Origin: an uncultured bacterium
GTDB taxonomy: Bacteria > Babelota > Babeliae > Babelales > Babelaceae
Reading direction: 5' to 3'
Length of the DNA stretch: 64,000 nucleotides
NCBI GenBank assembly: GCA_963695365.1
Contig: OY968766.1
Span: 305,744-369,743, forward strand
Part shown: positions 5,841 through 53,449 of the stretch, piece after piece
Layout: every line of letters starts with the position of its first letter
Position numbering within the stretch: the stretch's first letter is position 1
Made by a program: the position numbers and the translations under genes
Notes under the pieces: generated by a model
Told to the model about the DNA's origin: nothing
What the model saw: only the letters and a program-made list of their open reading frames with translations
Database searches by the model: none

Positions 5841-6012
5841 ATACCTTGATTTAAATAGCGATAGTGCGCTTGAGAAGCTTCAGAAGATTGAGCAAGAACC
5901 CAGAGAATCAAAATAAACAATACCCCAGTTTGTTAGCTCACTAGATCATCATAAAAAAATATGGTATATCTATGCCCAGAAAATATAACTCATATAAAAA
6001 CTGGATATACCA

Positions 6013-17587: not shown

Positions 17588-19087
<1,500 letters not shown>

Positions 19088-19102
19088 ACACAGTGGGATG
19101 AC

Positions 19103-19345
19103 ATGGAACTACAGATTATCGGTCCTACTAGCTCACAATCACTCGACATTCACTGGATAGATGTTTCAACGGCGGATGGCAATTGTGTTATTCTTCCTGG
19201 TCATACGCCGATGATAATATTACTAGCACCCAATAAAGAGGTAACAATGGAGCGAGCGGACGGTTCAACGATGGTAATGACTGTTGCCGGGGGTTTTTTG
19301 GAAGTAACACGAACATCAATAATGCTCATTCTGACTCATGACTAA
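19103..19345 (+). CDS. atpC: F1 ATP synthase subunit epsilon, beta-sandwich domain only (80 aa)
   Basis: GNCVILPGHTPMIILLAP...VAGGFLEV matches the epsilon N-terminal domain. The ORF ends where the C-terminal helical hairpin would normally begin. Confidence 0.82.
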   Translation: MELQIIGPTSSQSLDIHWIDVSTADGNCVILPGHTPMIILLAPNKEVTMERADGSTMVMTVAGGFLEVTRTSIMLILTHD

Positions 19346-39719: not shown

Positions 39720-42700
39720 ATGAAAAAACTGTTCGGCTTTTTACTCATTATGATCGGCGCACTGAGCACCATACCAATGCTCAGGGCAGAAGATCCTTCC
39801 GAAGAAATTCAGGTCACGGAATTTCCTGTCGGCGAGCCTAGGAGCACTCCTCAGGGAAAACCCCCTTTTAAGCTTGTACCGATCGATCCCGATGAAAGTA
39901 CAGAAGGCGGGACTCCCATACCTCGAACTACAGCTCCGGCACAACCAACACGAGCGCCACAAGTTACAATTATACAACCTGAGGCACGCACTCCTTCTGT
40001 AGCAGCTCAAGTAGCTGCGAAACAAGGAGCCCAAACCCCTGAAACCCCATCAAGGCCTGTCAATCAGACAGTACCTCCAACCGCAACCCCCGTATCACCA
40101 AAGCCCGCAGATCAGCCAGTTCCACCAGCTACAACTGCACCTTTGGCTCAGCCAGTTGCGGCACCAGCAAAGCCAACTATAGCTTCTCCTATTGCATCCG
40201 TAGCCGAAACACCAACAGCACCTGTGCAAAAGGTAATACCTGTAGCGGTACCTCAAGCAGCCGCAGCAACTCAAAAGGAACAACTAGTCGCACCAACTGC
40301 GCCAAAGGCAGCTGCTCCCCAGAGACAACCGACCCCTCCCGCTCAAGCAGCGCAACCAGCGACACCTATGAGCCCAGGAGCCCCTCAAGTACCGGCACCG
40401 GCTCAGCAAGCCGCCGCTCCCATCGGTGCGAAACCAGTAGTTCAGGCAAAACCTACGGCTCCGAAAGCCCAGGCTCCTGCTACACCAGCTTTAGTAAGCA
40501 CCAAAGGGGCAGAAAAAAAGAACAATATCAAGCAAGTGCCAATGAGACAAGAAAAGGGTATTCGTAGATTGCGCGATCGCCGCAAAATAAAAGCTGCTAT
40601 GAGCATGGCAGAAGAGCCTCGCACGAAAGAAGAGGCTCAAGAGCAAGAAAGAGCGATCGATGTGGGACAAGAGACCCAAAAAGACAAAGCAGCCGAAACA
40701 GCTGAGAATTTTGAAACGTTAGCGCAGACTGGTGGCATCTATCTTGGAAAATATCTCGAACCTTGGAAAGGATTTGATCCAAATGAGCGGGTCGAAATGA
40801 ACTTTGATAACAAAGAGCTCACCGAGCTTTTGAAATTTCTTTCCAATACGTTCGATATTACCTTTATCCTCGATGATGCTATAGAGCCAATGCGCGCTGA
40901 AGGTCTCCAACCGATGGCCGGCACGAAAATTACCTTCAAATCAGAAGTGCCTCTTACTCTCAAGCAAGCATGGGAGATCGGACTCACGTTTATTGAGATG
41001 GCGGGATTCTCCGTCATACCTAGTACCCTGCCACGCACCTATCGGGTAACGGTCAGCGCATCGCGAGATAAGCCATCAGCAAATCGTGAACCATTACCAA
41101 CATTTATAGGTACCGATCCGGAGCTTATTCCAAATAACGACACAAAAATTAGATACGTCTATTTTGCTGACAATGCAGAACTTTCTACAATTGTTCAGAT
41201 AATAGAGGCGATGAAATCGGGATCTGCTGGACCAATTATTGAGGTTCCGACATTGCGTGCAATTATTATGACCGATAAGGCTGCAAATATTCGATCACTT
41301 ATATCAATATTACAAGAGATCGATAAAGTCTCCCTTCCAGAAACTTTGGCAATTATCAGACTCCGCCATACTGATGCGCGCCAAGTGAGAGAGCTTTACT
41401 ATAAGCTGATAGGCAAAGATCCTCAAAGTCCGGCTTTTAATCCGTTTGCGCGCCAACGAAAACCGAGTACGACGCAATATTTCACTGAAGCAACGAGAGT
41501 ATTTGAAGAACCGTACACTAACTCGCTCATCGTATTAGGTACAAGAGATAATATTAAGCGGTTTGAAGATTTTATTTTAAAATATGTGGATAAAACACTC
41601 GATATCCCTTTCTCGCCACTCCATGTTATTCAACTCAAATATATGGATGCCGCTTCCATCGCAAAAATCCTCAATGAGATTATTCAAAAGTTTAACGCAG
41701 ATCCTTCAAATACCGCAGCAGCGCTCGTCGGCGGTGTACGTGATACCAATAAGTTTTTCCGCCCGACCGTCCGCATCACAGAAGAAACGTCAGGCAATAG
41801 GCTTATTATTAATGCAGATTATGATGAGTACCTGAAAATTAGAGAGCTCATCGAAAAACTTGACGTGGAACAGCCACAAGTAGCTATCAAAGTACTTATT
41901 CTTGACGTTGATTTAACCGACACCAAACAGATCGGTGTCCAGTTGCGTAATAAAGTAGACTGCTGCGATGGCACCGGCGGCACCAGCAGCATTCTTAGCC
42001 CTAATGTTAATTTCCAAACCGGGAACCTCGGCGCCATACAAACGCTTCAGCCGGCAACAGGCGGCCCGCCCATCAATGGCGCGGAAAGGCTTCTTGGTAA
42101 TCTCATCGCTCTCGCAGATCAGGTAAGCGGGGTATCTCCATTTGCAGCGGGAACAACACTCGTCACGCTTGGAAAAGATCTCTTTGGCTTCTGGGGACTT
42201 CTTGCAGCTCTCGAGATGTATACGCGGGTGAGTATTGTTGCAAATCCATTTTTAACGGTAACAAATAAGTATAAGGCTGAATTCAAGGTCGGTGAAACCC
42301 AACGTACAACATCTGCGATTGTTGAGGGTCAGCGTGAAGCGCAGGCTCAAGCAGATCTTTCTGCAGATCTTCGTGTTATCGTTACGCCTCAAATAAGTTT
42401 TGACGACATGATAACACTCAACGTATATGTTGAACTTGGTACCTTCATTGGTACAACGCAAAATCGTTTAATAAAGCGCGTAAGCACCGAAGCGCTCCTT
42501 GCAAATAGAGAAGTTCTTGCATTAGGCGGACTCATTCAGGATACCATTACTGAAAATATAACCAAGGTCCCCTTCCTTGGAGATATCCCGCTCTTGGGAT
42601 GGTTCTTCAAAAATAAAACAAAATCGGTTGAACGAAGCAGTTTGCTTATTCTCATCTGCCCGGAAATTATAAAACCTCATCAGCCAGAGGTAGCTCAAAA

Positions 42701-43004
42701 TTTCACGTATTCAAAAATCGCTGATGCCAAAGAAAATCTCTACAGCATGCGCGGTTATGCAGAACGACGAGATCCAATTCATCGCTGGTTCTTCGCTGAC
42801 CATAAAGATAAAGAAGCAAGTACCATAGATAGATTCGTCACGACTCAGGCGCGATATATCGATGAAAGTCAACGAAAACCGGAGATTGTTGCTCAACGGC
42901 CACCAACGAAAGAAAAAAATAAAACAACGAAAACAGAAAAGCCACAAGTGCCTGGTAAAAAGGGGCTGCTTGATCTTATTGAGCAAGCTGGAGAGCGTGC
43001 ATGA
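39720..43004 (+). CDS. secretin paralog 1 (GspD/PilQ family) with a long Pro/Ala/Thr/Gln-rich N-terminal extension
   Basis: Signal peptide, about 230 aa of low complexity, N-domains (IIRLRHTDARQVRELYYKL, VIQLKYMDAASIAKILNEI), and the secretin C-domain LALGGLIQDTITENITKVPFLGDIPLLGWFFKNKTK...LLILICPEII. Confidence 0.87.
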   Translation: MKKLFGFLLIMIGALSTIPMLRAEDPSEEIQVTEFPVGEPRSTPQGKPPFKLVPIDPDESTEGGTPIPRTTAPAQPTRAPQVTIIQPEARTPSVAAQVAAKQGAQTPETPSRPVNQTVPPTATPVSPKPADQPVPPATTAPLAQPVAAPAKPTIASPIASVAETPTAPVQKVIPVAVPQAAAATQKEQLVAPTAPKAAAPQRQPTPPAQAAQPATPMSPGAPQVPAPAQQAAAPIGAKPVVQAKPTAPKAQAPATPALVSTKGAEKKNNIKQVPMRQEKGIRRLRDRRKIKAAMSMAEEPRTKEEAQEQERAIDVGQETQKDKAAETAENFETLAQTGGIYLGKYLEPWKGFDPNERVEMNFDNKELTELLKFLSNTFDITFILDDAIEPMRAEGLQPMAGTKITFKSEVPLTLKQAWEIGLTFIEMAGFSVIPSTLPRTYRVTVSASRDKPSANREPLPTFIGTDPELIPNNDTKIRYVYFADNAELSTIVQIIEAMKSGSAGPIIEVPTLRAIIMTDKAANIRSLISILQEIDKVSLPETLAIIRLRHTDARQVRELYYKLIGKDPQSPAFNPFARQRKPSTTQYFTEATRVFEEPYTNSLIVLGTRDNIKRFEDFILKYVDKTLDIPFSPLHVIQLKYMDAASIAKILNEIIQKFNADPSNTAAALVGGVRDTNKFFRPTVRITEETSGNRLIINADYDEYLKIRELIEKLDVEQPQVAIKVLILDVDLTDTKQIGVQLRNKVDCCDGTGGTSSILSPNVNFQTGNLGAIQTLQPATGGPPINGAERLLGNLIALADQVSGVSPFAAGTTLVTLGKDLFGFWGLLAALEMYTRVSIVANPFLTVTNKYKAEFKVGETQRTTSAIVEGQREAQAQADLSADLRVIVTPQISFDDMITLNVYVELGTFIGTTQNRLIKRVSTEALLANREVLALGGLIQDTITENITKVPFLGDIPLLGWFFKNKTKSVERSSLLILICPEIIKPHQPEVAQNFTYSKIADAKENLYSMRGYAERRDPIHRWFFADHKDKEASTIDRFVTTQARYIDESQRKPEIVAQRPPTKEKNKTTKTEKPQVPGKKGLLDLIEQAGERA

Positions 43005-44554
43005 TTACCAACCTATTTATTCCTGAAGCAATAGGCTCTTACTACCTTCTACGTACGCGACGGGCGGGAATCGAGATAGCGCCAGATGCACTGCGTGTAA
43101 CGGTCATCCGCGCCCACGGAACAAAAAGAACCATAGAGGCTGTGCTTGAAGAACCTCTCCCAAAAGAGGGCGTTACTGATGAGGCAATAAGTAAAGCACT
43201 ACGTGAACTCAGCACAAAATGGGGAGCCGTCCAGGAAATTAGCTGCGTACTTCCAAGTTCGCTCGTTATTTTTAAAGAACTCAGCCTTCCTTTTATCGGA
43301 ATGAAAAAAGCGCAGCAGGTCGTTCCCTTTGAAATCGAAGCCCAGCTGCCATTTCCACTCGATGCGGCTGTCATAGATAGCATCGCTACAAAAGAAGATA
43401 TTGTTGCAAAAACGACCCATCTCCTTGTTGCGGCGGTCCAAAAGCAGACCGTTGCAAGATATATTGCTTACTTTCAGGCAGCGGACCTCACGCTCAGCAG
43501 ACTTACAGTCGATATGATTGAACTTTATAAACTCTATGAACTCTGTGCAAAACCATCCACTGACGCAATTGTCGCGCTCATCGATATTCAACCATATTCC
43601 ACGCAACTTGCAGTCAGCGTAGATCAACGCCTGGCTCATTTGAGAGCTTTACCACGCGGGCTATTCACCGGGCTTCAGACCGACCAAGCTTCAGTGCACA
43701 CCCTTGAAGAAGCTTTAGGAAGCGAAGGATCTTCCAGCATGAAACAGAACTTTACTGCTCTCCTCTCAGATATTCAATTTACCCTCGATGCCTATCGAGC
43801 CAGAGCAGATGCACAGGTACATATTGTCATAATGGGCGGCGCAGCAGAAAGCGACGCGATTATCTCATATATTAACCAGACGCTTACCACCGAGTGCTCC
43901 CGCTTTCAGCCGCAACAGATACGCGAGCAGCCGATGATACAAGAAAGCAATGGCATAACCCTTACGCAACAATATATGGTTAGTCTTGCAGCTGCACTTA
44001 AGCTCACGAAGATGAATTTTAATCAGGAATATGAAGCTGCACTTGAAAATCGCCTTTTATATCGGCAGCTCATGGTTCTTGCAGCACTGTGCGGATTGAT
44101 ACTCGTATCATGCTCACTCTACAGCCTTTTGCGAGTACGCGCACTCAAAAAAGCCTACCAAGCAGCTCAAGCAGAAGCGATTGCGGATCTTCAAAAGAGC
44201 TTTAAGCTTAAACCGACACAAACGGTCAATCTCGCTGCAGCAAATAAAGCTGCCTCAACGGAACTAAACCGTCAAGAATCAGCCTGGAATCATCTGTCTC
44301 AGGAAAATAGATATGCGCTTCTTACCAACCTCACCGCGCTGAGCTCATGCCTCAATGCGAAGGAAAGCCAGTTGGATCTCACCAGCGTCGTTATGAAAGA
44401 TGACACAATAAAGCTGTATGGCTCAGTTCCAGGATATCCACAGCTTACAAAACTGCAAAAACAGCTCGATTGCCCGCCGTTTAAAAAGCTGCCAAAACTC
44501 CAAGATTGGAATTTTAAAACTGAGCCAATAACCCTTATTGTTGAGCACAGCTAA
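43001..44554 (+). CDS. GspL-like or PilM-PilN fusion protein (cytoplasmic actin-like domain, TM, periplasmic domain)
   Basis: The N-terminus AGIEIAPDALRVTVIRA...VLPSSLVIFKELSLPF is PilM/GspL-like. One TM segment (LMVLAALCGLILVSCSLYSLL) at about residue 355, followed by a periplasmic tail of about 140 aa. ATGA overlap with secretin 1. Confidence 0.6.
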   Translation: MITNLFIPEAIGSYYLLRTRRAGIEIAPDALRVTVIRAHGTKRTIEAVLEEPLPKEGVTDEAISKALRELSTKWGAVQEISCVLPSSLVIFKELSLPFIGMKKAQQVVPFEIEAQLPFPLDAAVIDSIATKEDIVAKTTHLLVAAVQKQTVARYIAYFQAADLTLSRLTVDMIELYKLYELCAKPSTDAIVALIDIQPYSTQLAVSVDQRLAHLRALPRGLFTGLQTDQASVHTLEEALGSEGSSSMKQNFTALLSDIQFTLDAYRARADAQVHIVIMGGAAESDAIISYINQTLTTECSRFQPQQIREQPMIQESNGITLTQQYMVSLAAALKLTKMNFNQEYEAALENRLLYRQLMVLAALCGLILVSCSLYSLLRVRALKKAYQAAQAEAIADLQKSFKLKPTQTVNLAAANKAASTELNRQESAWNHLSQENRYALLTNLTALSSCLNAKESQLDLTSVVMKDDTIKLYGSVPGYPQLTKLQKQLDCPPFKKLPKLQDWNFKTEPITLIVEHS

Positions 44555-44569
44555 GCAAGAAAGTAACGT

Positions 44570-45127
44570 ATGGAATTTATAGACAGACTCAGAATAAGAA
44601 TTCAAAACCTCGAAGAACGAGAGCTCTCTCTTTATAGTGGTGCGTTTTTTCTTGGCATGCTCGCCCTTTTGGGTCTTCTTTTCTTTTGGCATTCACGAAG
44701 AGTAGGATACTATGCGAGAGAATTAAAAAACCTCGAGACGCAGCGTGCGGAAACAAAAAGACTATTAAGCAATTATAAGATAGCAAAAGCTCACAGTCAA
44801 AAAGTGGAAGAAATATTGACACAAAATAAGGACTTTCGTATCGGAGAGGCATTTCAAGACATTCTTCAGCGGACCGGATTGATCAGTCGATTACAAGCCC
44901 CAGTAAGTGCACCAACAGAGGGAGAGACACTCAGCGGCAAAACAGAGTTTCAAATAAGTGCTCAACTTGCCCGACTCTCTATGAAAAATATTACCGATCT
45001 TCTGCTTGCGATTGCTGCGGTGCCACAGCTGTACACGAAAGAAGTAACCCTTAAAAAAGAAAGTAGTTCGCCGCTTGTTGATCTTGATATAACAATTGCT
45101 ACACTAGAACTGAGTGCAACTGAATAG
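44570..45127 (+). CDS. GspM/PilO-like bitopic membrane protein
   Basis: 185 aa. One TM segment (GAFFLGMLALLGLLFFW), a coiled-coil segment and a small C-terminal domain. The call rests mainly on position between the GspL-like gene and the secretins. Confidence 0.45.
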   Translation: MEFIDRLRIRIQNLEERELSLYSGAFFLGMLALLGLLFFWHSRRVGYYARELKNLETQRAETKRLLSNYKIAKAHSQKVEEILTQNKDFRIGEAFQDILQRTGLISRLQAPVSAPTEGETLSGKTEFQISAQLARLSMKNITDLLLAIAAVPQLYTKEVTLKKESSSPLVDLDITIATLELSATE

Positions 45128-45135
45128 GAGCCTCC

Positions 45136-47535
45136 ATGAATTCCAAGATACCGGTACTATTTCTGATTCTTTTTCTTGCAGGCGATCTCCTTGCTGCACC
45201 AGTGCAGCGTGGAGACGATATCTTAGAACAACGAGCCGCTAAAAAAAGGAAACCAGAAGAACATATCCCTTTCTCATTTGAAAAGAAAAGTCTCGTTGAT
45301 ATTATCGAACAGGTCGCTTCTCTTAAGAAAATCAATGTCATCCTTCCCCAGCAAGCCGTCGATCTTGAGGCACTCAAAAAGCAGACGGTGAGCTATCAAC
45401 CACAAGGAAGAGAGACCGTATCGCTTGATACAGCATGGAATTTACTGTATACCTTTTTGGAATTGTCAGGATTCGCTATCAGCAAGCGGAAGGATGATCT
45501 CTACGTAGTCACGAGAGTAGGTCGACCTGACGAGCCAGGCATTAATCGCGAAGTTCTTCCGCTCTATATTAATACGCCACCCAATAAACTGCCCGATAGC
45601 GAAGAGCGAATCAGATATATGTACTATCTTCGTAATTTAACAGCACCGACAGCTCAAGATAAGGATACAAACCCTATTGCTCGCATTTTTAGAGATATGC
45701 TTTCACCGGGTGCGCCCGTTATTTTTGAAGCGAAAGCGAATGGATTTATCATTACTGATAAGTCAAATATTATCGCATCGGTTATGACCATTATTAAAGA
45801 ACTTGATAACAGCGGCTTTAAGGAAACGATCGAGGTGATTGAGCTGCACAATGTGCCTGCAAGGGATGTGGTGAAAGTGTTTGATTCCTTAAAAAAGGCA
45901 TCCGGCGACGTTAACCAGCCGCCCTTTATCCGAGGCGAAGAACATGGTGAATCACTCAGCTATTTCGCCGCGGACACAAAAATCATCGCTGATGATCGCA
46001 ACAACACACTCATACTCATGGGACGTGAAACTGCTGTAGAACGGATTGCAGATTTTGTTGAGCAGTACATGGATAACCCTCCAGAAACTGGTAAATCAAT
46101 TCTTCACTATTACGATCTTCAGTATCTTGATGCAAAACTCTTTGCCGATGTATTAACACGGATTGTCACGCCGCCCGTTCAGGCTGGGTTTCAGGGGCAA
46201 GCCGGCCCTCCCGTTGGACCAGAGAGATACTTCCAGGGGACAGTTGTCATGGCAGAGGAGGTAAAGACTGTTGAAACAAAAAGCACAACTGAGGAAATTA
46301 CGCTCGAAGCAAAGGGCGGCTATCTTCCAGTCGGGCTTGGTAATCAACAAATTATAACTGGCGGAAATCGGCTCATCGTTGCAGCCATTCATGATGATTG
46401 GGTCCGGTTAAGGGATTTTATCGAAGCGCTCGATAAGCCTCAGCCACAGGTGATTCTCGAAGTAATGATTGTAGATGTCACTCGAACAAGACAAAAGATT
46501 GTTTCAGGAACCTTCCGCACAAAAACGGACGCTCAGCTTCCTGATGGAGTTCAATTTCTCTCCTCTAATATATCAAACGTGAATAGCGTACTTGGAATCA
46601 ACCCTTCAGCGATCAATGTCGATTTGCTTGCGCTGCTCAGCGGCACACTACAGCAGGCAAACAACCCCCCGGTAACGTCTCTTTTGACACCCGGCTCAAC
46701 CATTATTTCATGGAATGATCCTCTAACACCAGGAATTTTCGGTCTTTTACAGCTTCTTGATTCAATTGTTGATAGCAAAGTCTTATCTCACCCATTTCTT
46801 GTTACCACCAATAACCAAAAGGCTACAATCGCATCACAAACGATTCAGCGTGTACAGGGAGACGCGGTTCCAGGAGCAGCAGGGGTTATTACCATTGAAA
46901 TCGTCGATCTTCCTGCAACACTTCAAGTACAAATGATCCCGCGAATTAGCTCTCCTACGCGACTACAGCTACAAATAGCAGTTGATGTTAACATGTTTAT
47001 TAATCCAACAAGTCAAACTCGAACAACGAGGCGAGTTAACACAAATGCCAATATGTCGAGTGGAGAAATACTCGTTATTGGTGGACTCACTCAAACAACT
47101 GAAACTGACGTCATAACCGGGACACCATTTCTTTCACGTATACCGCTGATCGGCAACTTCTTTAGCGGCAAGAATAAAATCTACGAGAAAACTAATATAG
47201 CCATTTTTATATCTCCCACCATTGTACAACCAAAGCTGAGGGGCGGTATGAATGTCTATACTGCAGATAAGATTCGCAGGGTGAGGCGAGATGTTAGTGA
47301 AGAAGCAGCGTTTAGCGATACGCGCGATCCAGTGACACGAATATTTTTCAATATTGATGGCAAAACAGATAAACTGATGAGAGATTATCTTTCGGAGGTG
47401 GATAATCCACCTGATGCTGAAATTATAAACAAAATGTATGCTCGACGCCAAGCAGCACGACGAGCACGCCAACCAAAACCAAAGCAGGAAGTAATTAAGC
47501 CAACAGCGGGGCCGGTAAAACCAGTGCCGGCATGA
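45136..47535 (+). CDS. secretin paralog 2
   Basis: Signal peptide, N0-like SLDTAWNLLYTFLELSGFAI, N-domains (VIELHNVPARDVVKVFDSLKK, YYDLQYLDAKLFADVLTRIV), and the secretin domain LVIGGLTQTTETDVITGTPFLSRIPLIGNFFSGKNK...IAIFISPTIV. TAGGAG precedes the ATG. Confidence 0.87.
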   Translation: MNSKIPVLFLILFLAGDLLAAPVQRGDDILEQRAAKKRKPEEHIPFSFEKKSLVDIIEQVASLKKINVILPQQAVDLEALKKQTVSYQPQGRETVSLDTAWNLLYTFLELSGFAISKRKDDLYVVTRVGRPDEPGINREVLPLYINTPPNKLPDSEERIRYMYYLRNLTAPTAQDKDTNPIARIFRDMLSPGAPVIFEAKANGFIITDKSNIIASVMTIIKELDNSGFKETIEVIELHNVPARDVVKVFDSLKKASGDVNQPPFIRGEEHGESLSYFAADTKIIADDRNNTLILMGRETAVERIADFVEQYMDNPPETGKSILHYYDLQYLDAKLFADVLTRIVTPPVQAGFQGQAGPPVGPERYFQGTVVMAEEVKTVETKSTTEEITLEAKGGYLPVGLGNQQIITGGNRLIVAAIHDDWVRLRDFIEALDKPQPQVILEVMIVDVTRTRQKIVSGTFRTKTDAQLPDGVQFLSSNISNVNSVLGINPSAINVDLLALLSGTLQQANNPPVTSLLTPGSTIISWNDPLTPGIFGLLQLLDSIVDSKVLSHPFLVTTNNQKATIASQTIQRVQGDAVPGAAGVITIEIVDLPATLQVQMIPRISSPTRLQLQIAVDVNMFINPTSQTRTTRRVNTNANMSSGEILVIGGLTQTTETDVITGTPFLSRIPLIGNFFSGKNKIYEKTNIAIFISPTIVQPKLRGGMNVYTADKIRRVRRDVSEEAAFSDTRDPVTRIFFNIDGKTDKLMRDYLSEVDNPPDAEIINKMYARRQAARRARQPKPKQEVIKPTAGPVKPVPA

Positions 47536-47539
47536 TGAT

Positions 47540-50026
47540 ATGAACATAAAAAAAGAGTATATAAAGCAAGCGATTCTCGTTCTCGCATGGATTGGCATGA
47601 CAGAAGTCATCCCCGCCATCCCGCTGATGGTGCCATTCTTGTTAAACAGAGCTTCGCTCTATGATACCGCGCAAGATCTAGCTAAAGACAGAGACATTCT
47701 CCTCATCCCACCTCAAGGCGCGGCTGACCTTGAAGCACTCAAGGCACAGCGAGTAAGCTATACGCCATCGATCGGGGATAGGATCCCATTACCGCAGGCA
47801 TGGGAACTTACCAAAACATTTTTGGAGATGTCAGGCTTTAGTCTCGTTCAAAAAAATGAGCGTACCTTTGCTATCGTGCGTGAGAGCTCAATCGAAGGAG
47901 GAGCTGCTCATAGAGACATTTTGCCTCTCTATATAGATCCAAGGCCCGAGGATCTGCCTCGTAGTGATAGCCGCGTGAGAGCACTCATCTATCTTCGAAA
48001 TATAAAAGTGCCAACGCTTGCAGAAAAAGAGCGCCATCCATTGACGAACCTGATAAAAGAACTCGGATCAAAATATGTGAACTTTATATTTGAGCCTCGC
48101 TCTAACGGGATTCTTATAACTGACTTAGCACCTCATGCAGCATCCATTATTCATATTATAGATGCCTTCGATAAGCGAGGAGGCGCTCAGGAGATCGCCT
48201 ACATTCCTTTGGCTTACGTAAAGGCAACCGATATTGCAAATATTTTTGATTCTTTAAAAAAAGCCTCTGCCCCTGCTGAAGGTGCAGGGCAAGTTGAAAG
48301 TTCCGCAGCCCCTTTTGGCAGTGATACGACTGTTATAGCCGATACGATGCGTAATGGGATTATTCTCATGGGATATAGCGACCATCTCGAAAAAATAACT
48401 GATTTTATTACAGAATCGCTCGATGTTCCTCAGGAAAACGGTAAATCGATCCTCCACTCGTATGATCTTGAGTATCTGGATGCTGCAACATTTGCACCCG
48501 CACTCCAAAAAATTGTCGGCTCACTCCTTGTAAGCGGTCAGGCCACCCAGGCACCGGTAAGGAGGGGACAGGAACACTTCTTTAAAGGCGTACAAGTGGT
48601 AGCGGAAGGTTCGGTTGAAATAAAAATAAAACAGGACCCTGAGTGGCCAGTATACGATCAAAAGGGATATCCTGAGGCTGTAGGTATAGAGGGAGCTACA
48701 TTTCGTGGCAGTAACCGCATTATTGTCGCAGCCCGCCAGGACGATTGGCGCATAATTGAACAGTTTATTAAAAAGATCGATAAGCCGAATTTACAGGTTA
48801 TTCTCGAAATTATGATCGTCAATTTTGCATATGATCATACCACAACGCTTGCCACCACAGTGAGAAGCAAAACGGATAGCGCCATACTTTCCCCAGGCGT
48901 GCAGTTTCTTTCATCGCAAATATCTTCCGTTAATTCGGTTCTGGGCAACACACCTACGCAACTGGCAGAAGATCTCTTGCAAATGGTCGGGCCCGGAAGC
49001 CTCACAACAACCCTGAGCCCCGGCCCACTCATTATCTCGCTCAATGACCCAACAACACCCGGCATTTTTGGACTTATTCAAATTCTGGAAACCATTATGA
49101 AAACGCAAATATTTTCATATCCATATCTTATGATCTCAAATAATCAAAAGGGCACGGTGGAGTCTGAAGAAATCCGCAGACCTATGGGTGATTTAGTAAC
49201 GACCCAAAATGGCACCTACACGATTCCAGTGATCGATTTGCCGGCCGCCACGAGGATCACAGCCGTTCCCCATATTGTTTCTCCAGAACGAGTACGACTT
49301 GACATCGGATTTACCATGGATACCTTCGTTGGCACATCGTTTACGCGACTCACACAAAGCCTTAATACAACAGCCACGCTTGCATCGGGACAGATACTTG
49401 TCATGGGAGGGCTCGCTCGTATAGATCGTAATGATACAATAACACAAACTCCTTTCCTTGGGAGCATTCCGATTTTAGGAGCATTTTTTCGAGGGAGAAC
49501 AGAAGAAACAACGCGCACCAATTTAATAATATTTGTCTCGCCGACCATCATACGACCCCGCCATAAAAATGAATTAGCAACGGACAAAACACGAGATCTG
49601 GTTTGTCGCGTACAAGAAGGCAACATCATTCCACTAGAAAGTGATAGGGATCCGGTCTTTCGTCTTTTTTTAAAATCGCCCCCAGATTCAACCTTTAATA
49701 CGTATTTCCCAGAATCGGACAATCTACCAGAGTTACGAGATACTACCTGTATAGTGCTACCAGAGCAAAAGATTCATGATCTGAAAAATACTCGCAGATC
49801 AGCCTCACAACGGAGTGATTTTTTTAATCCATTTGGGCAGGTGCCACCATCCGGCCAAGGGGTCACTCAGCGCGTCCTGCCAGATTTTCCAAAACTCTTT
49901 CTTGCTTCAACCCGCGAGATTATCAATAAAAATGCGGCAATTCCCTCGTGGGCCAAGCCGCAAAAATCGATCGACCGTCTTAAAGAACTTCTTGCTACGT
50001 GCGATAAGCCATTTATTCGAGTATAA
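47540..50026 (+). CDS. secretin paralog 3
   Basis: N0-like PLPQAWELTKTFLEMSGFSL, N-domains (YIPLAYVKATDIANIFDSLKK, SYDLEYLDAATFAPALQKIV), and the secretin domain LVMGGLARIDRNDTITQTPFLGSIPILGAFFRGRTE...LIIFVSPTII. Starts 4 nt after paralog 2. Confidence 0.87.
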   Translation: MNIKKEYIKQAILVLAWIGMTEVIPAIPLMVPFLLNRASLYDTAQDLAKDRDILLIPPQGAADLEALKAQRVSYTPSIGDRIPLPQAWELTKTFLEMSGFSLVQKNERTFAIVRESSIEGGAAHRDILPLYIDPRPEDLPRSDSRVRALIYLRNIKVPTLAEKERHPLTNLIKELGSKYVNFIFEPRSNGILITDLAPHAASIIHIIDAFDKRGGAQEIAYIPLAYVKATDIANIFDSLKKASAPAEGAGQVESSAAPFGSDTTVIADTMRNGIILMGYSDHLEKITDFITESLDVPQENGKSILHSYDLEYLDAATFAPALQKIVGSLLVSGQATQAPVRRGQEHFFKGVQVVAEGSVEIKIKQDPEWPVYDQKGYPEAVGIEGATFRGSNRIIVAARQDDWRIIEQFIKKIDKPNLQVILEIMIVNFAYDHTTTLATTVRSKTDSAILSPGVQFLSSQISSVNSVLGNTPTQLAEDLLQMVGPGSLTTTLSPGPLIISLNDPTTPGIFGLIQILETIMKTQIFSYPYLMISNNQKGTVESEEIRRPMGDLVTTQNGTYTIPVIDLPAATRITAVPHIVSPERVRLDIGFTMDTFVGTSFTRLTQSLNTTATLASGQILVMGGLARIDRNDTITQTPFLGSIPILGAFFRGRTEETTRTNLIIFVSPTIIRPRHKNELATDKTRDLVCRVQEGNIIPLESDRDPVFRLFLKSPPDSTFNTYFPESDNLPELRDTTCIVLPEQKIHDLKNTRRSASQRSDFFNPFGQVPPSGQGVTQRVLPDFPKLFLASTREIINKNAAIPSWAKPQKSIDRLKELLATCDKPFIRV

Positions 50027-50101: not shown

Positions 50102-51538
50102 CTAAAGAACAAGTTTTGCTGCGAGAATACCTAATGGTACCTTTATTGCTTCATGACGATCAGGAGCTATACCATTGTTGCTCAAGTCAACCCTTTCCAA
50201 TGCTGGCCGGTTTTTATTCATCAGCTCTCTTATTTTTTGGATTGAAAGATCACCGCTTATCGCATTCCCCGGCATCAAAAGGAGTTTAAGAAAAGCTGCT
50301 TTGTTGATTAACGCATCAAAAAACTTATGTAGCAATTCCTTATCAGTGTCTGGATCATCGTTATCCTTGACGTGCATTTGAGAAAGATCTATTTCTTGAA
50401 GATGGTCTTGCTCAAGCAATCCCCTAGGAAATGTACAAAGCATTTTTAAAATGCATGTTTTTAAAGTATCAGAAGCTGTTGAGCGCTCACAACTAGCCAC
50501 CACTTTATTGCTTACCTGATCGTACGTATAAGTAACAGTCCCGTGAGTCAATGTACCTCGTATAGATTTACGAAATGCGGTAAGCCCATAGCCTAAGGAC
50601 CCTTTTGCATAACAGCGCAATGCTGCGCCATCAAAACCAAAATAGAGTGGATAGTATTGAGATCCAGCTTCTTCTAGTAACAAATCATCTATCCGTTTTA
50701 CAATCACCCCATTTGGATGAAGAAAATCAGGATTCACCCCCGAACTTAAAATAGCGCCTCGCACCTGTAATAGGTGCAACCATACATCATCATTACTACC
50801 GTGGGTAGCCGCGCCATGATGACCTGCATGCAGCATACATCCATAATTCAGAAGATTGTGTTCGGGTGGTAAGTGTGCTGGTATATAGTCAGTTGTCGCT
50901 TTCTCAGCATCCCCCATAATTGCCATTTTCATCTGCCCATCTTGAACAAAAACAACTAAACTTGATTTATTCTTATCGGCTTCAACTGCACCTTGCAAGG
51001 CTGGCCCTATCCAATAATTAATCGGCCCATTATTACATATCTCTGTCACCGCATGTTTATCACCTAGCAACGTTACGAAATTAATGGGACTCGGACTCCC
51101 ATCATCCGGTTCTATGTTATTTAGAAACGATTGGAACCCCCTTGCGATATACAAATCTCTGGCGCTTCCAAGGAACATTTTTGAGACATAGATTCCGTTA
51201 TCTAATTTTGTACAAGCAGCTATGATTTTTGGCAACCATCGATAATGATCAACATCGGCATGACTCGCAACGAGTGTTATTTCTTTCTTATTTATAAGCT
51301 TAAGATAAGCATTAATCTTTTCACTGATACGTTTGATCTGCTCCTCTTTGAATTTAGCAGATCTAAACTTCTTGTAAGCTGTTGATCCTGCATCTACCAG
51401 AAGAGGAGGAACCTTTAAAGCATAATTGTGACAGAGAATGAGAGTGCAATTACCTTGTCCAACGTCATAACAGATTATCTCCAGTTGAGCTAAAGCTAAA
51501 CTTGGGTATAATAGCAAGAGCAACATTTTGAGAATCAT
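50102..51538 (-). CDS. secreted ComEC-type metallo-beta-lactamase-fold protein with C-terminal LRR-like region
   Basis: Start trimmed to ATG 51538 (AAGGAG 7 nt upstream, inside the end of the upstream gene). Signal peptide MILKMLLLLLYPSLALA. YDVGQGNCTLI...LLVDAGS...LVASHADVDHYRWL...HAGHHGA is the ComEC-like MBL pattern. The C-terminus LERVDLSNNGIAPDRHEAI is LRR-like. Confidence 0.72.
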   Translation of the reverse strand: MILKMLLLLLYPSLALAQLEIICYDVGQGNCTLILCHNYALKVPPLLVDAGSTAYKKFRSAKFKEEQIKRISEKINAYLKLINKKEITLVASHADVDHYRWLPKIIAACTKLDNGIYVSKMFLGSARDLYIARGFQSFLNNIEPDDGSPSPINFVTLLGDKHAVTEICNNGPINYWIGPALQGAVEADKNKSSLVVFVQDGQMKMAIMGDAEKATTDYIPAHLPPEHNLLNYGCMLHAGHHGAATHGSNDDVWLHLLQVRGAILSSGVNPDFLHPNGVIVKRIDDLLLEEAGSQYYPLYFGFDGAALRCYAKGSLGYGLTAFRKSIRGTLTHGTVTYTYDQVSNKVVASCERSTASDTLKTCILKMLCTFPRGLLEQDHLQEIDLSQMHVKDNDDPDTDKELLHKFFDALINKAAFLKLLLMPGNAISGDLSIQKIRELMNKNRPALERVDLSNNGIAPDRHEAIKVPLGILAAKLVL

Positions 51539-51542
51539 TGAC

Positions 51543-53339
51543 CTACTCCTTTTTATCAAGACTTGTTCCCGTAAGTATTTTTGCTAACACAAATTGATAC
51601 ATATCCTTAATATAATCTCTGAGTTTCTTTTTTGCTTCTTCGGCCTCTTCGAACGTTGCAGCAAATTCTATTCTTTTTTCAATACCACGAAGACCACCTC
51701 GATTAAAGCACCGTATTGCACTCCCTCTGTCGCCTTGGGCAAGGAACAACTCGCCTAATTTAACAAAGCCAGTAGGATCACCTGCTAATCCCCAAGCTTG
51801 ATAAATCTTTTTTAGGCCGCTTGATTCTCCACTGCTTGAGCTCAATTGAGCGAGTTTTTCATAAGCAGAAAGAACATGGTGGAGAGCTGCAAGGCGGTAC
51901 ATTTCTTGTGCCTGGCTAGGATTACTTTCTTCTAACAATAATCCTACAGTAAAATAACTACCTGAGATGCCTGCTTGTGCACACCTGAGATGTAATGCAA
52001 CTCGTTGTGCTATATCATCAATGAATGATTCTCCTGCTAGCTGAGCTAAATAAGGATCGAGCTCCTGCAACCTTTGAATTATCTCTTTCTTTGCCTCAGT
52101 ATTTCTTGTGCAAAGTGCATGTCGATAACCACACCAGGCATGTTTCTGTTCCTCAAAACCTTTTTTAAACCATTGATTTGCTTGCTTGGTATTGCCAAGA
52201 CACAAACAAAGCAATCCAGTATGATACAGCGGACTATTTGGCAAACCTAGGTCAGAAGACAGAATCTCGCTCGCTTTTTGAAGCTCCGGCCTACCCATCA
52301 GGGGAGACTCTTCTTCAAGGGAATACAATTTAAGCAATTCAATGGCATAATGCATGGAGAGCTTATTGCCAAAAGAAGCGGAAATACAAATAAGATACTG
52401 CAATGTTTCTGAGCTCAGAATTTCATAATTGTTTTCATATTGAACAGGAAGGAATAAATAGCCCATAAATGCTTGATAAAATGTCTGCCCTGGCCATCGT
52501 ATATACGTTATATTAGTCCAAACGTTTAACGCTCTTTCAATCTTAGATTTATAGGTATCAAAACAATCTGTGATATTGCTTAACGATAGGCTATCAAAGT
52601 GAGAATAAGAAAGATATTCCCTCACATATCTGACAAGATTTTCAAATCCTTCATTTGTTTTTGTTAGACAAAACCGTTGAATTGTATAGGGCAGCCATAC
52701 ATCAAGTCGTCTAAAGTGGCTCTCTAAGAGATCATGACTCATTATGTCATTTTGGTCGGTAGTAATGTAAGGAGTTTCACTGTGACTGTCTGACGCCAAG
52801 GCAGTTCCGCTTTTATGCATTTTAAGCTCAAATACCGTTGCCATGAGTTCTTTTTCTTCATCTGTGAATGGTGCCTCTTCAACGTGAGGCAAGTCCTTAA
52901 GCTCAACTCTTTGATCATAACCTCTTTCAAAAAGCGTAAGCACCTCCCAAACGACCGGTCCATGTGTATAGTGAATAACATTTTCCGTAAACATCGAGCG
53001 TTTATTCAAGGCAAGTGAATAGCCCTGAATATAATATAATAATTTCTGAAGTTTCATGCGATCAATAAACGTATGTGTTCTCGTTTCCTGTGCATCAAGT
53101 TTGAGTAAATAAACAGCAACTTGGGCTGCCTGATACTGTGCCTCATCTTCATTTTTCGTCTTTTTGAGAACCGGTGATAAGGGAACAAGCCCTTGATCGC
53201 TTTCCTCGCTTGACCTTCGCTCTCGCTTCCCTTCTTTAAAAAGATCAGAAGAGCTCCTCGAGAGGCTTTCCATAGCACAAAGATATGGCGAGCCCATCAA
53301 TAAAAAGGCTAGAAAAAAATAATGCGCATTTTTCGTCAT
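51543..53339 (-). CDS. secreted protein with Panacea (DUF4065, SocA/GepA-like) domain fused to Sel1/TPR-like repeats
   Basis: Start trimmed to ATG 53339 (AAGGAG upstream), giving the signal peptide MTKNAHYFFLAFLLMGSPYLCA. DRMKLQKLLYYIQGYSLALNKRSMFTENVIHYTHGPVVWEV is the DUF4065 signature. The C-terminal half contains Sel1-like repeats (GDPTGFVKLGELFLAQGDRGSAIRCFNRGG). Confidence 0.7.
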   Translation of the reverse strand: MTKNAHYFFLAFLLMGSPYLCAMESLSRSSSDLFKEGKRERRSSEESDQGLVPLSPVLKKTKNEDEAQYQAAQVAVYLLKLDAQETRTHTFIDRMKLQKLLYYIQGYSLALNKRSMFTENVIHYTHGPVVWEVLTLFERGYDQRVELKDLPHVEEAPFTDEEKELMATVFELKMHKSGTALASDSHSETPYITTDQNDIMSHDLLESHFRRLDVWLPYTIQRFCLTKTNEGFENLVRYVREYLSYSHFDSLSLSNITDCFDTYKSKIERALNVWTNITYIRWPGQTFYQAFMGYLFLPVQYENNYEILSSETLQYLICISASFGNKLSMHYAIELLKLYSLEEESPLMGRPELQKASEILSSDLGLPNSPLYHTGLLCLCLGNTKQANQWFKKGFEEQKHAWCGYRHALCTRNTEAKKEIIQRLQELDPYLAQLAGESFIDDIAQRVALHLRCAQAGISGSYFTVGLLLEESNPSQAQEMYRLAALHHVLSAYEKLAQLSSSSGESSGLKKIYQAWGLAGDPTGFVKLGELFLAQGDRGSAIRCFNRGGLRGIEKRIEFAATFEEAEEAKKKLRDYIKDMYQFVLAKILTGTSLDKKE

Positions 53340-53449
53340 AGCTACTCCTTGCATTCTCATGTATAATGTCACGCCTGGATTTGGCATTAGAATAGCAATA
53401 TTTCGTTTTCAGCACAAATTGTAAAGAAGTAGAATAATTGTAGAATAAT

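What the first reader, a model, noticed from the sequence alone, without database searches (positions are those of the whole stretch)
50102..53339. Translationally coupled pair of secreted proteins: Panacea(DUF4065)+Sel1 upstream of a ComEC-type MBL+LRR protein
Seen: the 51543-53339 product has a signal peptide, a clear DUF4065/Panacea signature (KLQKLLYYIQGYSLALNKRSMF...HGPVVWEV) and a Sel1/TPR-like C-terminal half. Its last codons (AAA AAG GAG TAG) contain the Shine-Dalgarno sequence for the next gene, whose ATG (51538) is 4 nt after the stop. That second product has its own signal peptide, a ComEC-like metallo-beta-lactamase domain (DVGQGN..., SHADVDH, HAGHHG) and an LRR-like tail. Established: Panacea domains are best known as the neutralising module of many toxin-antitoxin pairs (SocA/PanA type). 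ComEC-type MBL domains are nucleases. Inference: this could be a chaperone-or-immunity plus nuclease-effector pair that has been re-targeted outside the cytoplasm, since both proteins are exported and both carry eukaryote-like repeat domains. I do not know Panacea biology to include that context. The pair sits next to the secretin cluster, convergent with it.
Basis: partly seen in the sequence, partly recalled or inferred. Interest (0 to 1): 0.65.

Follow-up and report, generated by a model that had tools for sequence, protein, structure and literature searches.

The report
Exported Panacea partner plus ComEC-type hydrolase
Two tightly linked genes of an uncultured, probably host-dependent bacterium encode exported proteins, one carrying a domain otherwise known from cytoplasmic antitoxins and the other a free-standing copy of the DNA-cutting domain of the competence protein ComEC; the two are inherited together in at least ten lineages, which is an undescribed setting for both domains.

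Summary
Gene A (51543-53339, minus strand) has a signal-peptide-like N-terminus, a disordered linker, a Panacea/DUF4065 domain with the GPV signature (Pfam E 5.5e-13) and a roughly 390-residue TPR/Sel1-like solenoid. Its last codons hold AAGGAG, and gene B starts 4 nt after its stop.

Gene B (50102-51538, minus strand) has a signal peptide, then a ComEC-type metallo-beta-lactamase (MBL) domain with all catalytic residues invariant (HxDxDH, GD, HHG), then a beta-rich domain and a ribonuclease-inhibitor-type LRR tail.

New here:
- The coupled A-to-B arrangement recurs in at least ten distinct loci (overlaps or gaps of 28 nt or less).
- A and B co-diverge (r = 0.90).
- B belongs to a large uncharacterised exported family (301 cluster representatives at E <= 1e-30).
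- The conserved part of the partner is its solenoid. The Panacea domain is degenerate or absent in some lineages.
- The secretin neighbourhood is not conserved.
- The nearest Panacea relatives are about 150-residue proteins without signal peptides.

Best reading, about 45% confidence: an extracytoplasmic enzyme-plus-dedicated-partner module, with B a nuclease or phosphodiesterase and A an inhibitor or chaperone. It is not a classical cytoplasmic toxin-antitoxin pair. Binding, substrate and secretion route are untested. I rate it a new variant of a known kind, with moderate interest.

The parts
53345..53350 (-). Shine-Dalgarno-like AAGGAG five bases upstream of the ATG of gene A
   Evidence: Sequence read. 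It supports the 53339 start rather than the 53387 start used by gene callers.
51543..53339 (-). Gene A: a 598-residue exported protein with a Panacea domain and a TPR/Sel1-like solenoid (stop codon included)
   Evidence: ORF; Pfam and PHROG hits; homologues P0002-P0005 at 29-56% identity over the full length.
53274..53339 (-). A residues 1-22: signal-peptide-like N-terminus (MTKNAHYFFLAFLLMGSPYLCA|MES)
   Evidence: Heuristic with positive and negative controls. The same character is seen in all homologues, with VSA|ME and ISA|SE sites.
53142..53273 (-). A residues 23-66: charged linker, predicted disordered
   Evidence: AlphaFold2 pLDDT below 50 for residues 1-66. The GKRER...PLSPxLKK motif is conserved.
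52710..53141 (-). A residues 67-210: Panacea (DUF4065) domain. The GPV signature lies at 52953-52961.
   Evidence: PF13274 E 5.5e-13; phrog_1281 E 3e-22. The GPV motif is described as the domain's signature and critical for neutralisation in PMC8832971.
51546..52709 (-). A residues 211-598: helical linker plus TPR/Sel1-like alpha-solenoid. This is the part conserved in every partner of B.
   Evidence: AlphaFold2 pLDDT about 80-90. Foldseek matches TPR and Sel1-like-repeat proteins. hhalign to the Panacea-less partner in L007 gives E 1.3e-11.
51536..51551 (-). Coupling junction: AAGGAG inside the last codons of A, TAG stop, GTCA spacer, ATG of B
   Evidence: The equivalent junctions in other loci are ATGA or TAATG overlaps, 14-nt overlaps, or gaps of 1-28 nt.
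50102..51538 (-). Gene B: a 478-residue exported ComEC-type MBL hydrolase with an LRR tail (stop codon included)
   Evidence: ORF; TIGR00361 C-terminal domain E 5e-13; PDB ComEC domains E 1e-17; AlphaFold2 pLDDT 82, pTM 0.83.
51488..51538 (-). B residues 1-17: signal peptide (MILKMLLLLLYPSLALA|QLEI) directly before the first MBL strand
   Evidence: 88 of 97 N-terminally complete family representatives have the same feature. It aligns with the last membrane helix of full-length ComEC.
50669..51487 (-). B residues 18-290: MBL catalytic domain. The HxDxDH motif (H93-A-D95-V-D97-H98) lies at 51245-51262. D210 and H240-H241 are also invariant.
   Evidence: Invariant columns. They correspond to H598/D600/D602/H603, D700 and H725 of the ComEC domain (PMC12455585).
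50429..50668 (-). B residues 291-370: beta-rich middle domain of unknown function
   Evidence: Secondary structure of the AlphaFold2 model. It is conserved in the family profile.
50105..50428 (-). B residues 371-478: three to four ribonuclease-inhibitor-type leucine-rich repeats
   Evidence: Profile hits to 4r5d (3e-8), ribonuclease inhibitor (7e-5) and RanGAP (3e-3). The model shows alternating strand and helix at pLDDT about 90. 74 of 145 representatives align through this tail.

Best explanation
This is a vertically inherited, translationally coupled two-gene operon of a small-genome, probably host-dependent bacterium. The named relatives are Dependentiae/TM6. Its two products work together outside the cytoplasm.

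B is a catalytically intact ComEC/Pce-type binuclear metallo-phosphodiesterase. It is most likely a Mn2+-dependent DNA/RNA endonuclease and 5'-3' exonuclease. It is exported by a cleavable Sec signal that sits where ComEC has its last membrane helix, and it carries a protein-binding LRR tail.

A is its dedicated partner. It is exported in the same way and made in fixed ratio through translational coupling. I propose that A binds B through its TPR/Sel1-like solenoid. The Panacea domain, which in this clade keeps its GPV signature, would act as an accessory inhibitory or regulatory plug. A would hold or escort B in the periplasm as an inhibitor or steric chaperone until B is released, plausibly through the type II secretion system these bacteria carry. 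B would then degrade host or environmental nucleic acid, for nucleotide salvage or host manipulation.

Shown: gene structure, domains, export signals, intact active site, conservation and co-divergence of the pair.

Inferred: physical binding, whether A inhibits or chaperones, the substrate, the secretion route and the target compartment.
For: Domains and motifs.

Export:
- Signal-peptide character is found in all A and B homologues, with no other membrane segment.
- Controls behave as expected.
- 88 of 97 family representatives with a complete N-terminus have the same feature.
- The solved ComEC domain is extracytoplasmic (PMC8579336 abstract; PMC12455585).

Active site: Q/G/N, D49, H93xD95xD97H98, G209-D210, H240-H241-G and H274-P are invariant across relatives at 22-58% identity. 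HxDxDH is the ComEC form of the motif.

Pairing:
- An A-like gene lies immediately upstream of B in the window, L117, L003, L005, L006, L007-9, L004, L011, L118 and L120, and as a fragment in L119.
- Homology of these partners to A was confirmed by hhalign.
- Three arbitrarily chosen family representatives all had an upstream, tightly coupled gene. Two were confirmed A-like. The third is a 75-residue fragment that aligns at the expected position but is not significant alone.

Co-divergence: pairwise identities of A and B correlate at r = 0.90, and 0 of 10000 Mantel permutations reach that value. The pair is therefore inherited as a unit, without partner swapping.

Known Panacea function is direct binding and neutralisation of a partner protein (PMC8832971). 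The family has also been proposed, on a marginal match (E about 1e-3), to be homologous to the DarT-binding helical domain of DarG (PMC13621843).

Lifestyle: TM6 genomes have a type II secretion system with two gspD copies, lack nucleotide synthesis and are rich in eukaryote-like repeats (PMC4776705). The window carries three secretin genes.
Against: - No interaction evidence exists.
- The Panacea domain is dispensable in some lineages whose B keeps every catalytic residue. L007 has no Panacea. L118 has a decayed core and no Pfam hit. L011 has GAL and L120 has GAF in place of GPV. Any essential neutralisation therefore cannot rest on Panacea alone.
- A periplasmic DNA nuclease has no obvious self-target, so an 'immunity' role is not required.
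- More distant B relatives stand alone (L010, L013).
- This genome also has an orphan A paralogue beside cell-wall genes. Each protein can therefore exist without the other.
- The substrate is unproven. The best structural match is the phosphorylcholine esterase Pce.
- Signal peptides were judged by a home-made rule, not by SignalP.
- Taxonomy rests on the titles of related records and on gene content, not on a marker-gene phylogeny.
Confidence: 0.45

Rival explanations
1. A classical cytoplasmic PanAT type II toxin-antitoxin pair. B would be a nuclease toxin acting on the cell's own DNA or RNA. A would be the labile antitoxin that binds it in the cytoplasm. The hydrophobic N-termini would be irrelevant or would serve as membrane anchors.
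For: The locus meets the published in-silico criteria for a PanAT-like locus: two genes less than 100 nt apart, antitoxin first, conserved in more than one species, and no long operon (PMC8832971). The Panacea domain with its GPV motif is intact.
Against: - Both proteins, and every homologue, carry signal-peptide-like N-termini.
- A is four times the size of the nearest Panacea proteins (median 158 residues). In 78 of those 80 loci no signal-like hydrophobic segment precedes the domain. The two exceptions are an over-extended ORF and a giant ORF of more than 2215 residues.
- Panacea is lost or decayed in lineages that keep an active-looking B.
- The pair co-diverges without partner swapping, unlike the hyperpromiscuous PanAT pattern.
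- B belongs to a large family of 450-500-residue exported proteins.
- There is no PADLOC hit for A and only a weak one for B.
Confidence: 0.07
2. A split competence nuclease. B would supply in trans the strand-degrading nuclease that some ComEC channels lack. It would work in the periplasm behind a secretin during DNA uptake, with A as an accessory factor.
For: B is most similar in sequence to the ComEC nuclease domain, and its signal peptide replaces ComEC's last membrane helix. ComEC versions without this domain exist (PMC12455585), and Chlamydia CT339 is one whose nuclease is unknown (PMC6686042). In this window the pair lies next to three secretin genes and a PilM-like gene.
Against: The secretin neighbourhood is not conserved in any other locus. 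No comEA, comEC, dprA or pilin gene was found among the window ORFs scanned. The LRR tail and the solenoid partner have no counterpart in competence systems. Whether this genome's ComEC lacks its nuclease domain could not be checked.
Confidence: 0.1
3. The same two-protein logic with a substrate other than nucleic acid. B would be a Pce-like phosphodiesterase that removes phosphodiester-linked head groups (phosphocholine, lipid or glycan phosphates) from envelope or host membranes. A would be a periplasmic immunity-like inhibitor that protects the producer's own envelope.
For: The best structural match of the B model is the pneumococcal phosphorylcholine esterase (E 5e-8), which also appears in the sequence profile search. 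A self-protecting periplasmic inhibitor makes more sense for an envelope-active enzyme than for a DNase.
Against: Sequence similarity to ComEC nuclease domains is far stronger (1e-17 against 1e-3). The motif is the ComEC form, HxDxDH. Pce is also the closest structural neighbour of the proven ComEC nuclease domain, so the fold match does not discriminate between the two substrates.
Confidence: 0.15
4. Two co-expressed but functionally independent exported repeat proteins. A would be a general scaffold or host-interaction protein and B a secreted hydrolase. Their adjacency would reflect shared regulation only.
For: An orphan A paralogue exists, and partner-less B relatives exist. Repeat-protein families are expanded in such bacteria.
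Against: Adjacency, order and start/stop coupling are preserved down to about 25-30% identity in at least ten loci, and divergence is tightly correlated. This is hard to explain by co-regulation alone.
Confidence: 0.15

Closest known systems
PanAT toxin-antitoxin systems (Panacea/DUF4065 antitoxins; Kurata et al. 2022, PMC8832971)
   Same: Panacea domain with the KLQKLLYY helix and the GPV motif. Antitoxin-first, tightly spaced two-gene locus conserved across species. The partner is an enzyme that could be harmful.
   Different: Both products carry Sec-type signals. A has 598 residues and a 390-residue TPR/Sel1-like extension, against about 150 residues for typical members. The partner is a 478-residue multidomain exported protein. 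There is no partner swapping. Panacea is lost in some lineages of the same operon.
C-terminal beta-lactamase-like nuclease domain of ComEC (PMC8579336, PMC12455585; PDB 9ic4, 30bt, 9vc6)
   Same: Best sequence match. HxDxDH, GD and HHG catalytic residues are shared, as is the extracytoplasmic location. The structural neighbours are the same (Pce, RNase J).
   Different: B is free-standing, with a cleavable signal peptide in place of the membrane channel and OB fold. It has GQGN instead of GQGD. It carries an added beta-rich domain and an LRR tail. It is paired with a solenoid protein.
Stand-alone exported ComEC-like MBL hydrolases of other bacteria (lipoproteins in Stenotrophomonas, Marinobacterium and Gilvimarinus; N-terminally anchored ~320-residue proteins in Clostridia)
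   Same: An exported single-domain relative of the ComEC nuclease (loci L014-L028).
   Different: Only 21-26% identical, with no LRR tail. Neighbouring genes in these loci were not examined.
Pneumococcal phosphorylcholine esterase Pce/CbpE (PDB 1wra, 2bib)
   Same: Top structural match. It is a secreted MBL-fold phosphodiesterase fused to a repeat domain.
   Different: Sequence similarity is weak (E 1e-3). Its repeat module is choline-binding rather than LRR, and it has no partner gene.
Secreted lipase with its periplasmic helical foldase (LipA/Lif of Pseudomonas and Burkholderia). This comparison rests on my own knowledge and was not tested here.
   Same: A bicistronic operon encoding an exported enzyme and a dedicated exported all-helical partner that embraces it before type II secretion.
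   Different: No sequence relationship. Lif is membrane-anchored and lies downstream of the lipase. It has no Panacea domain.

Membership tests
Panacea / DUF4065 domain (PF13274) | Match to the family HMM above the curated threshold | tested here: met
   50.3 bits against a cut-off of 25.7, E 5.5e-13. PHROG equivalents score E 3e-22.
Panacea / DUF4065 domain (PF13274) | Conserved GPV motif and central conserved helix | tested here: met
   G127-P128-V129 and KLQKLLYYIQGYSLA are present. The motif is defined in PMC8832971. It is degenerate in L011 and L120 and absent in L118 and L007.
PanAT type II toxin-antitoxin system | [quoted passage not shown] | tested here: met
   plus at least ten loci. 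A third gene is inserted in L004 and L011.
PanAT type II toxin-antitoxin system | Both components act in the producer's cytoplasm | tested here: not met
   Signal-peptide-like N-termini are present on A, on B and on all homologues. This is a heuristic result, not SignalP.
PanAT type II toxin-antitoxin system | Toxicity of the partner and its neutralisation by the Panacea protein through complex formation | not testable with these tools
   Needs expression and pull-down experiments.
ComEC/Rec2 (TIGR00361 equivalog) | Full-length match, including the membrane competence domain, above the curated cut-off | tested here: not met
   48 bits against a cut-off of 190. Only model positions 426-649 are matched, and there are no membrane segments beyond the signal peptide.
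ComEC-type MBL nuclease domain | Metal ligands HxDxDH and the downstream Asp, plus the HHG histidine | tested here: met
   H93, D95, D97, H98, D210 and H240/H241 are invariant and map onto H598, D600, D602, H603, D700 and H725.
ComEC-type MBL nuclease domain | Mn2+-dependent DNA cleavage | not testable with these tools
   Biochemistry is needed.
Sel1-like repeat (PF08238) | HMM match to Sel1 repeats | tested here: not met
   No PF08238 hit at E <= 1. Only a weak TPR_2 hit was found.
TPR/Sel1-like alpha-solenoid fold | Stacked helix-turn-helix repeats forming a superhelix | tested here: met
   The AlphaFold2 model has about 20 paired helices at pLDDT 80-90. Foldseek matches CTPR, the OGT TPR domain and the Sel1-like-repeat proteins c5321 and LceB, and giant-virus Sel1 proteins. 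The homologous position in L007 passes the TPR_8 threshold.
Ribonuclease-inhibitor-type LRR | Repeats of about 28 residues, each a strand followed by a helix, with LxxLxLxxN | tested here: met
   Profile hits to LRR structures down to E 3e-8. The model shows E382/H400, E419/H430 and E449/H459. Pfam LRR models do not reach threshold for the window protein.

The most novel reading that the evidence does not exclude
The Panacea domain works outside the cytoplasm. On this reading A is a Sec-exported neutraliser that keeps an exported ComEC-type nuclease silent in the periplasm and is delivered with it, or stripped from it, at secretion. That would be an extracytoplasmic counterpart of a toxin-antitoxin pair, re-used as an effector-plus-regulator module by host-dependent bacteria.
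Probability: 0.2. Interest if true: 0.75.

Novelty: new variant of a known kind. Interest (0 to 1): 0.5.

Why it matters
Panacea is known as a cytoplasmic, small, freely exchangeable antitoxin module. Here it sits behind a signal peptide, fused to a large solenoid and locked to a single partner, which would extend the contexts in which the domain acts.

The partner defines a sizeable, unannotated family of exported stand-alone ComEC-type hydrolases (hundreds of sequence clusters). These occur in bacteria that probably cannot make nucleotides, so the family is a candidate route for nucleic-acid scavenging or host manipulation.

The proteins are small enough to express, so binding, inhibition and nuclease activity can be tested directly.

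Tried and rejected
- A fused A-linker-B chain with a paired alignment was submitted for AlphaFold2 to look for an interface.
- A profile of the C-terminal half of A against the word-indexed protein collection returned only two known members, so it added nothing.
- The genome scan with the B profile did not recover the window's own genome or its close relatives. It returned Dependentiae-like and generic ComEC-like loci. The first attempt failed for lack of a conserved stretch.
- The metagenome scan with the A alignment returned only generic ~150-residue Panacea genes. These were used as a baseline.
- Cluster look-ups gave no names, so the organism could not be identified directly. Rfam found only one tRNA in the window.
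- I began by assuming a Chlamydiae origin. I dropped this because the named relatives are Dependentiae/Babeliales. The paralogue locus also carries a class A penicillin-binding protein, which Chlamydiae lack to my knowledge.
- A role of A as a secretin pilotin, and a functional link to the secretin cluster, were rejected because that context is not conserved and A has no lipobox.
- The promoter and terminator scans were not above chance.


Full report
**1. What is in the sequence.**

Two ORFs lie on the minus strand, 51543-53339 (A, 598 residues from the ATG at 53339) and 50102-51538 (B, 478 residues). A ends AAA AAG GAG TAG. Four bases (GTCA) later comes the ATG of B, so the AAGGAG inside A's last codons sits 7 nt before B's start. 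The same AAGGAGTAG string also precedes A's own ATG at 53339. This, together with the N-termini of the homologues, favours that start over the 53387 start used by gene callers. Both genes are intact.

**2. Domains of A.**

- Pfam gives SocA_Panacea (PF13274) at E 5.5e-13, above threshold, for residues 97-191.
- Two PHROG families extend the match to residues 62-210 at E 3e-22.
- The KLQKLLYY helix and the GPV motif are both present. Kurata et al. describe GPV as the domain's signature and as critical for neutralisation (PMC8832971).
- No Sel1 HMM hit was found, and only a sub-threshold TPR_2 hit.
- An AlphaFold2 model built from the five family members has mean pLDDT 70. Residues 1-66 are disordered, the Panacea part is patchy, and residues ~220-598 form a confident all-helical solenoid.
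- Foldseek matches that solenoid to designed and natural TPR proteins and to Sel1-like-repeat proteins (c5321, LceB) in the PDB. It also matches Sel1/TPR proteins of giant viruses.
- 'Sel1/TPR-like' is therefore right at the level of fold.

**3. Domains of B.**

- Pfam Lactamase_B is below threshold.
- NCBIfam's ComEC/Rec2 model matches with its C-terminal part only (model positions 426-649, E 5e-13).
- A profile of nine family members hits solved ComEC beta-lactamase-like domains (9ic4 at 1e-17, 30bt at 2e-17). With its C-terminus it hits ribonuclease-inhibitor-type LRR proteins (4r5d at 3e-8, ribonuclease inhibitor, RanGAP).
- The invariant residues are G27-Q-G-N30, D49, H93-x-D95-x-D97-H98, G209-D210, H240-H241-G and H274-P.
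- The ComEC nuclease domain has exactly this HxDxDH variant (H598/D600/D602/H603). D700 is a further metal ligand and H725 lies near the substrate. It is a Mn2+-dependent endonuclease and 5'-3' exonuclease (PMC12455585).
- The AlphaFold2 model of B is good (pLDDT 82, pTM 0.83). It shows an MBL sandwich, a beta-rich middle domain, and three to four strand-helix repeats at the end.
- Its best PDB matches are the phosphorylcholine esterase Pce, PNGM-1 and RNA-processing MBL nucleases. That is the same set of neighbours reported for the ComEC domain itself.
'Nuclease' is the most likely activity but remains unproven.

**4. Export.**

SignalP was not available, so I used a simple rule: a basic n-region, a short hydrophobic core, small residues at -3/-1, and no later membrane segment. 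Applied to 45 window ORFs it flags 12. These include A, B and all three secretins, and none of enolase, ClpB, Lon, AtpD, UvrC, TIM or YifB.

Every homologue of A and B has the same kind of N-terminus although the sequences differ. Typical predicted sites are VSA|ME, ISA|SE, ALA|QL and SFA|QL.

In B the signal peptide runs straight into the first MBL strand. In the alignment to full-length ComEC it occupies the position of the last membrane helix. This gives B the same extracytoplasmic topology as the ComEC domain.

**5. Conservation of the pair.**

The word-indexed search found few relatives. Looking up their contigs shows an A-like gene immediately upstream of B in these loci:

| Locus | Junction between A-like gene and B | Note |
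|---|---|---|
| L117 | 1-nt gap | B really starts at a GTG and has a signal peptide |
| L003 | 1-nt overlap | |
| L005 | ATGA overlap | A is split by a frameshift at a G5 run, probably an assembly error |
| L006 | ATGA overlap | A is cut by the contig end |
| L007-L009 | TAATG overlap | Partner has no Panacea domain |
| L004, L011 | not applicable | An extra exported 246-residue gene lies between A and B |

An exhaustive profile search then showed that B belongs to a much larger family. There are 301 cluster representatives at E <= 1e-30. Of the best 145:
- 88 of the 97 with a complete N-terminus have a signal-like segment before VGQGN.
- 127 have HxDxDH and 144 have HHG.
- 74 align through the LRR tail.

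I looked up three arbitrary representatives. All three have an upstream gene that overlaps B or lies within 28 nt of it:
- L118: hhalign to A gives probability 100%.
- L120: hhalign to A gives probability 99.9%.
- L119: only a 75-residue fragment remains. It aligns at the expected position but is not significant on its own.

Across nine loci, the pairwise identities of A and of B correlate at r = 0.90, and no Mantel permutation out of 10000 reaches that value. The pair is therefore inherited as a unit.

**6. What in A goes with B.**

- In L007 the partner has 1018 residues, a signal peptide and no Panacea domain. Its last 260 residues are nevertheless homologous to A residues 290-546 (E 1.3e-11).
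- In L118 the Panacea core is decayed (FEKLLREVQGYSLA, with the GPV strand deleted), and Pfam no longer detects it.
- In L011 and L120 GPV has become GAL and GAF.
- B's catalytic residues are intact in all of these lineages.
- The solenoid, not Panacea, is therefore the constant partner element. In the window's own clade Panacea is nevertheless the most conserved block of A.
- This genome also has an orphan paralogue of A (P0003, 49% identical, signal peptide and Panacea intact) between a class A penicillin-binding protein and murG.
- More distant B relatives (24-25% identity) have no partner.

**7. Baselines.**

The 80 closest Panacea genes in metagenomes encode proteins with a median length of 158 residues. 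In 78 of the 80, no signal-like hydrophobic segment precedes the domain. The two exceptions are an over-extended ORF and a giant ORF of more than 2215 residues. A's architecture is therefore unusual for the domain.

Stand-alone exported ComEC-like hydrolases are not unusual. The nearest non-family relatives include lipoproteins of Stenotrophomonas, Marinobacterium and Gilvimarinus, and N-terminally anchored Clostridia proteins, alongside true ComECs.

I found no paper describing an exported Panacea protein.

**8. Context and organism.**

The pair is convergent with three secretin genes and a PilM/GspL-like gene and lies just downstream of enolase. None of this recurs in the other loci. Those show P-type ATPase, ankyrin-repeat genes and transposases, ABC transporter and LRR genes, or a MYND-finger gene. 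The secretin link is therefore incidental.

Several lines point to Dependentiae:
- The named relatives are 'Candidatus Dependentiae' (L012) and 'Candidatus Babeliales' (P0014).
- TM6 genomes are reported to carry type II secretion with duplicated gspD, an ATP synthase, many eukaryote-like repeats and no nucleotide synthesis (PMC4776705).
- The window has F-type atpD, multiple secretins and ordinary housekeeping genes.

I therefore treat a Dependentiae-like, host-dependent bacterium as probable but not shown.

**9. Mechanism.**

The best-supported reading is an extracytoplasmic enzyme-partner module. B is an active ComEC/Pce-type phosphodiesterase, most likely a nuclease. A is its dedicated binding partner, acting through the solenoid, with Panacea as an accessory inhibitory or regulatory element. 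Both are exported by Sec, and B is possibly released by type II secretion for nucleic-acid scavenging or host manipulation.

Only the anatomy, the export signals, the intact active site and the co-inheritance are shown. Binding, the direction of the effect, the substrate and the route are inferred.

Rivals:
- A classical cytoplasmic PanAT pair. This is contradicted by the signals, the sizes, the loss of Panacea in some lineages and the absence of partner swapping.
- A trans-acting competence nuclease. The context is not conserved, and this could not be tested against the genome's own ComEC.
- A non-nucleic-acid substrate with A as a periplasmic immunity-like protein.
- Mere co-expression of two independent proteins.

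**10. Verdict.**

I file it as a new variant of a known kind. The domain combinations and the extracytoplasmic setting are new, and both domains are known. Interest is moderate at 0.5. It would be higher if Panacea is shown to act as an extracytoplasmic neutraliser.

Noticed in passing
window 39720-50026 (+): Three secretin genes (39720-43004, 1094 residues with a long N-terminal extension; 45136-47535; 47540-50026) lie together with a PilM/GspL-like gene (43001-44554) and a 185-residue ORF (44570-45127). This is an unusual triple-secretin cluster. TM6 genomes are reported to carry two gspD copies.
   Followed up: partly
window 15135-16720 (+): An AbiEi antitoxin gene (15135-15938, Pfam E 2e-40) overlaps a 261-residue ORF (15935-16720). 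This is probably a conventional type IV AbiE toxin-antitoxin pair in the same window.
   Followed up: no
L004 5283-6023; L011 7218-7961: In one lineage an extra exported gene of about 246 residues sits between A and B. It weakly resembles the N-terminal half of the MBL domain with the catalytic residues replaced (hhalign E 4e-4, probability 35%). It may be a degenerate duplicate.
   Followed up: partly
L006 580-2211 (P0010): This B homologue ends in seven tandem copies of a basic KKRTHKHS unit. The tail looks like a nucleic-acid-binding segment or a nuclear-localisation signal.
   Followed up: no
L001 8001-9794 (P0003, same genome as the window): An orphan paralogue of A (49% identical, signal peptide and Panacea intact) has no MBL gene beside it. 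It lies between a class A penicillin-binding protein gene and murG.
   Followed up: partly
L105 (match at 6001-6651): A Panacea domain sits at the C-terminus of an open reading frame of more than 2215 residues in a metagenome contig. This is very different from the usual ~150-residue proteins.
   Followed up: no
window 53342-53350 and 51543-51551 (-): The same nine bases, AAGGAGTAG, precede the start codons of both A and B.
   Followed up: no
L119 1639-4816 compared with window 17630-20939: A related contig carries the same atpD - ATP synthase epsilon - HerA/DUF87-like gene order right next to its B gene, whereas in the window that block is 30 kb away. The operon therefore moves relative to conserved housekeeping blocks.
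   Followed up: no
L011 3694-4902: A protein with a hydrophobic N-terminal segment and a C-terminal MYND zinc finger (Pfam E 2e-8), a eukaryote-type domain, lies just upstream of the A/B operon in a related genome.
   Followed up: no
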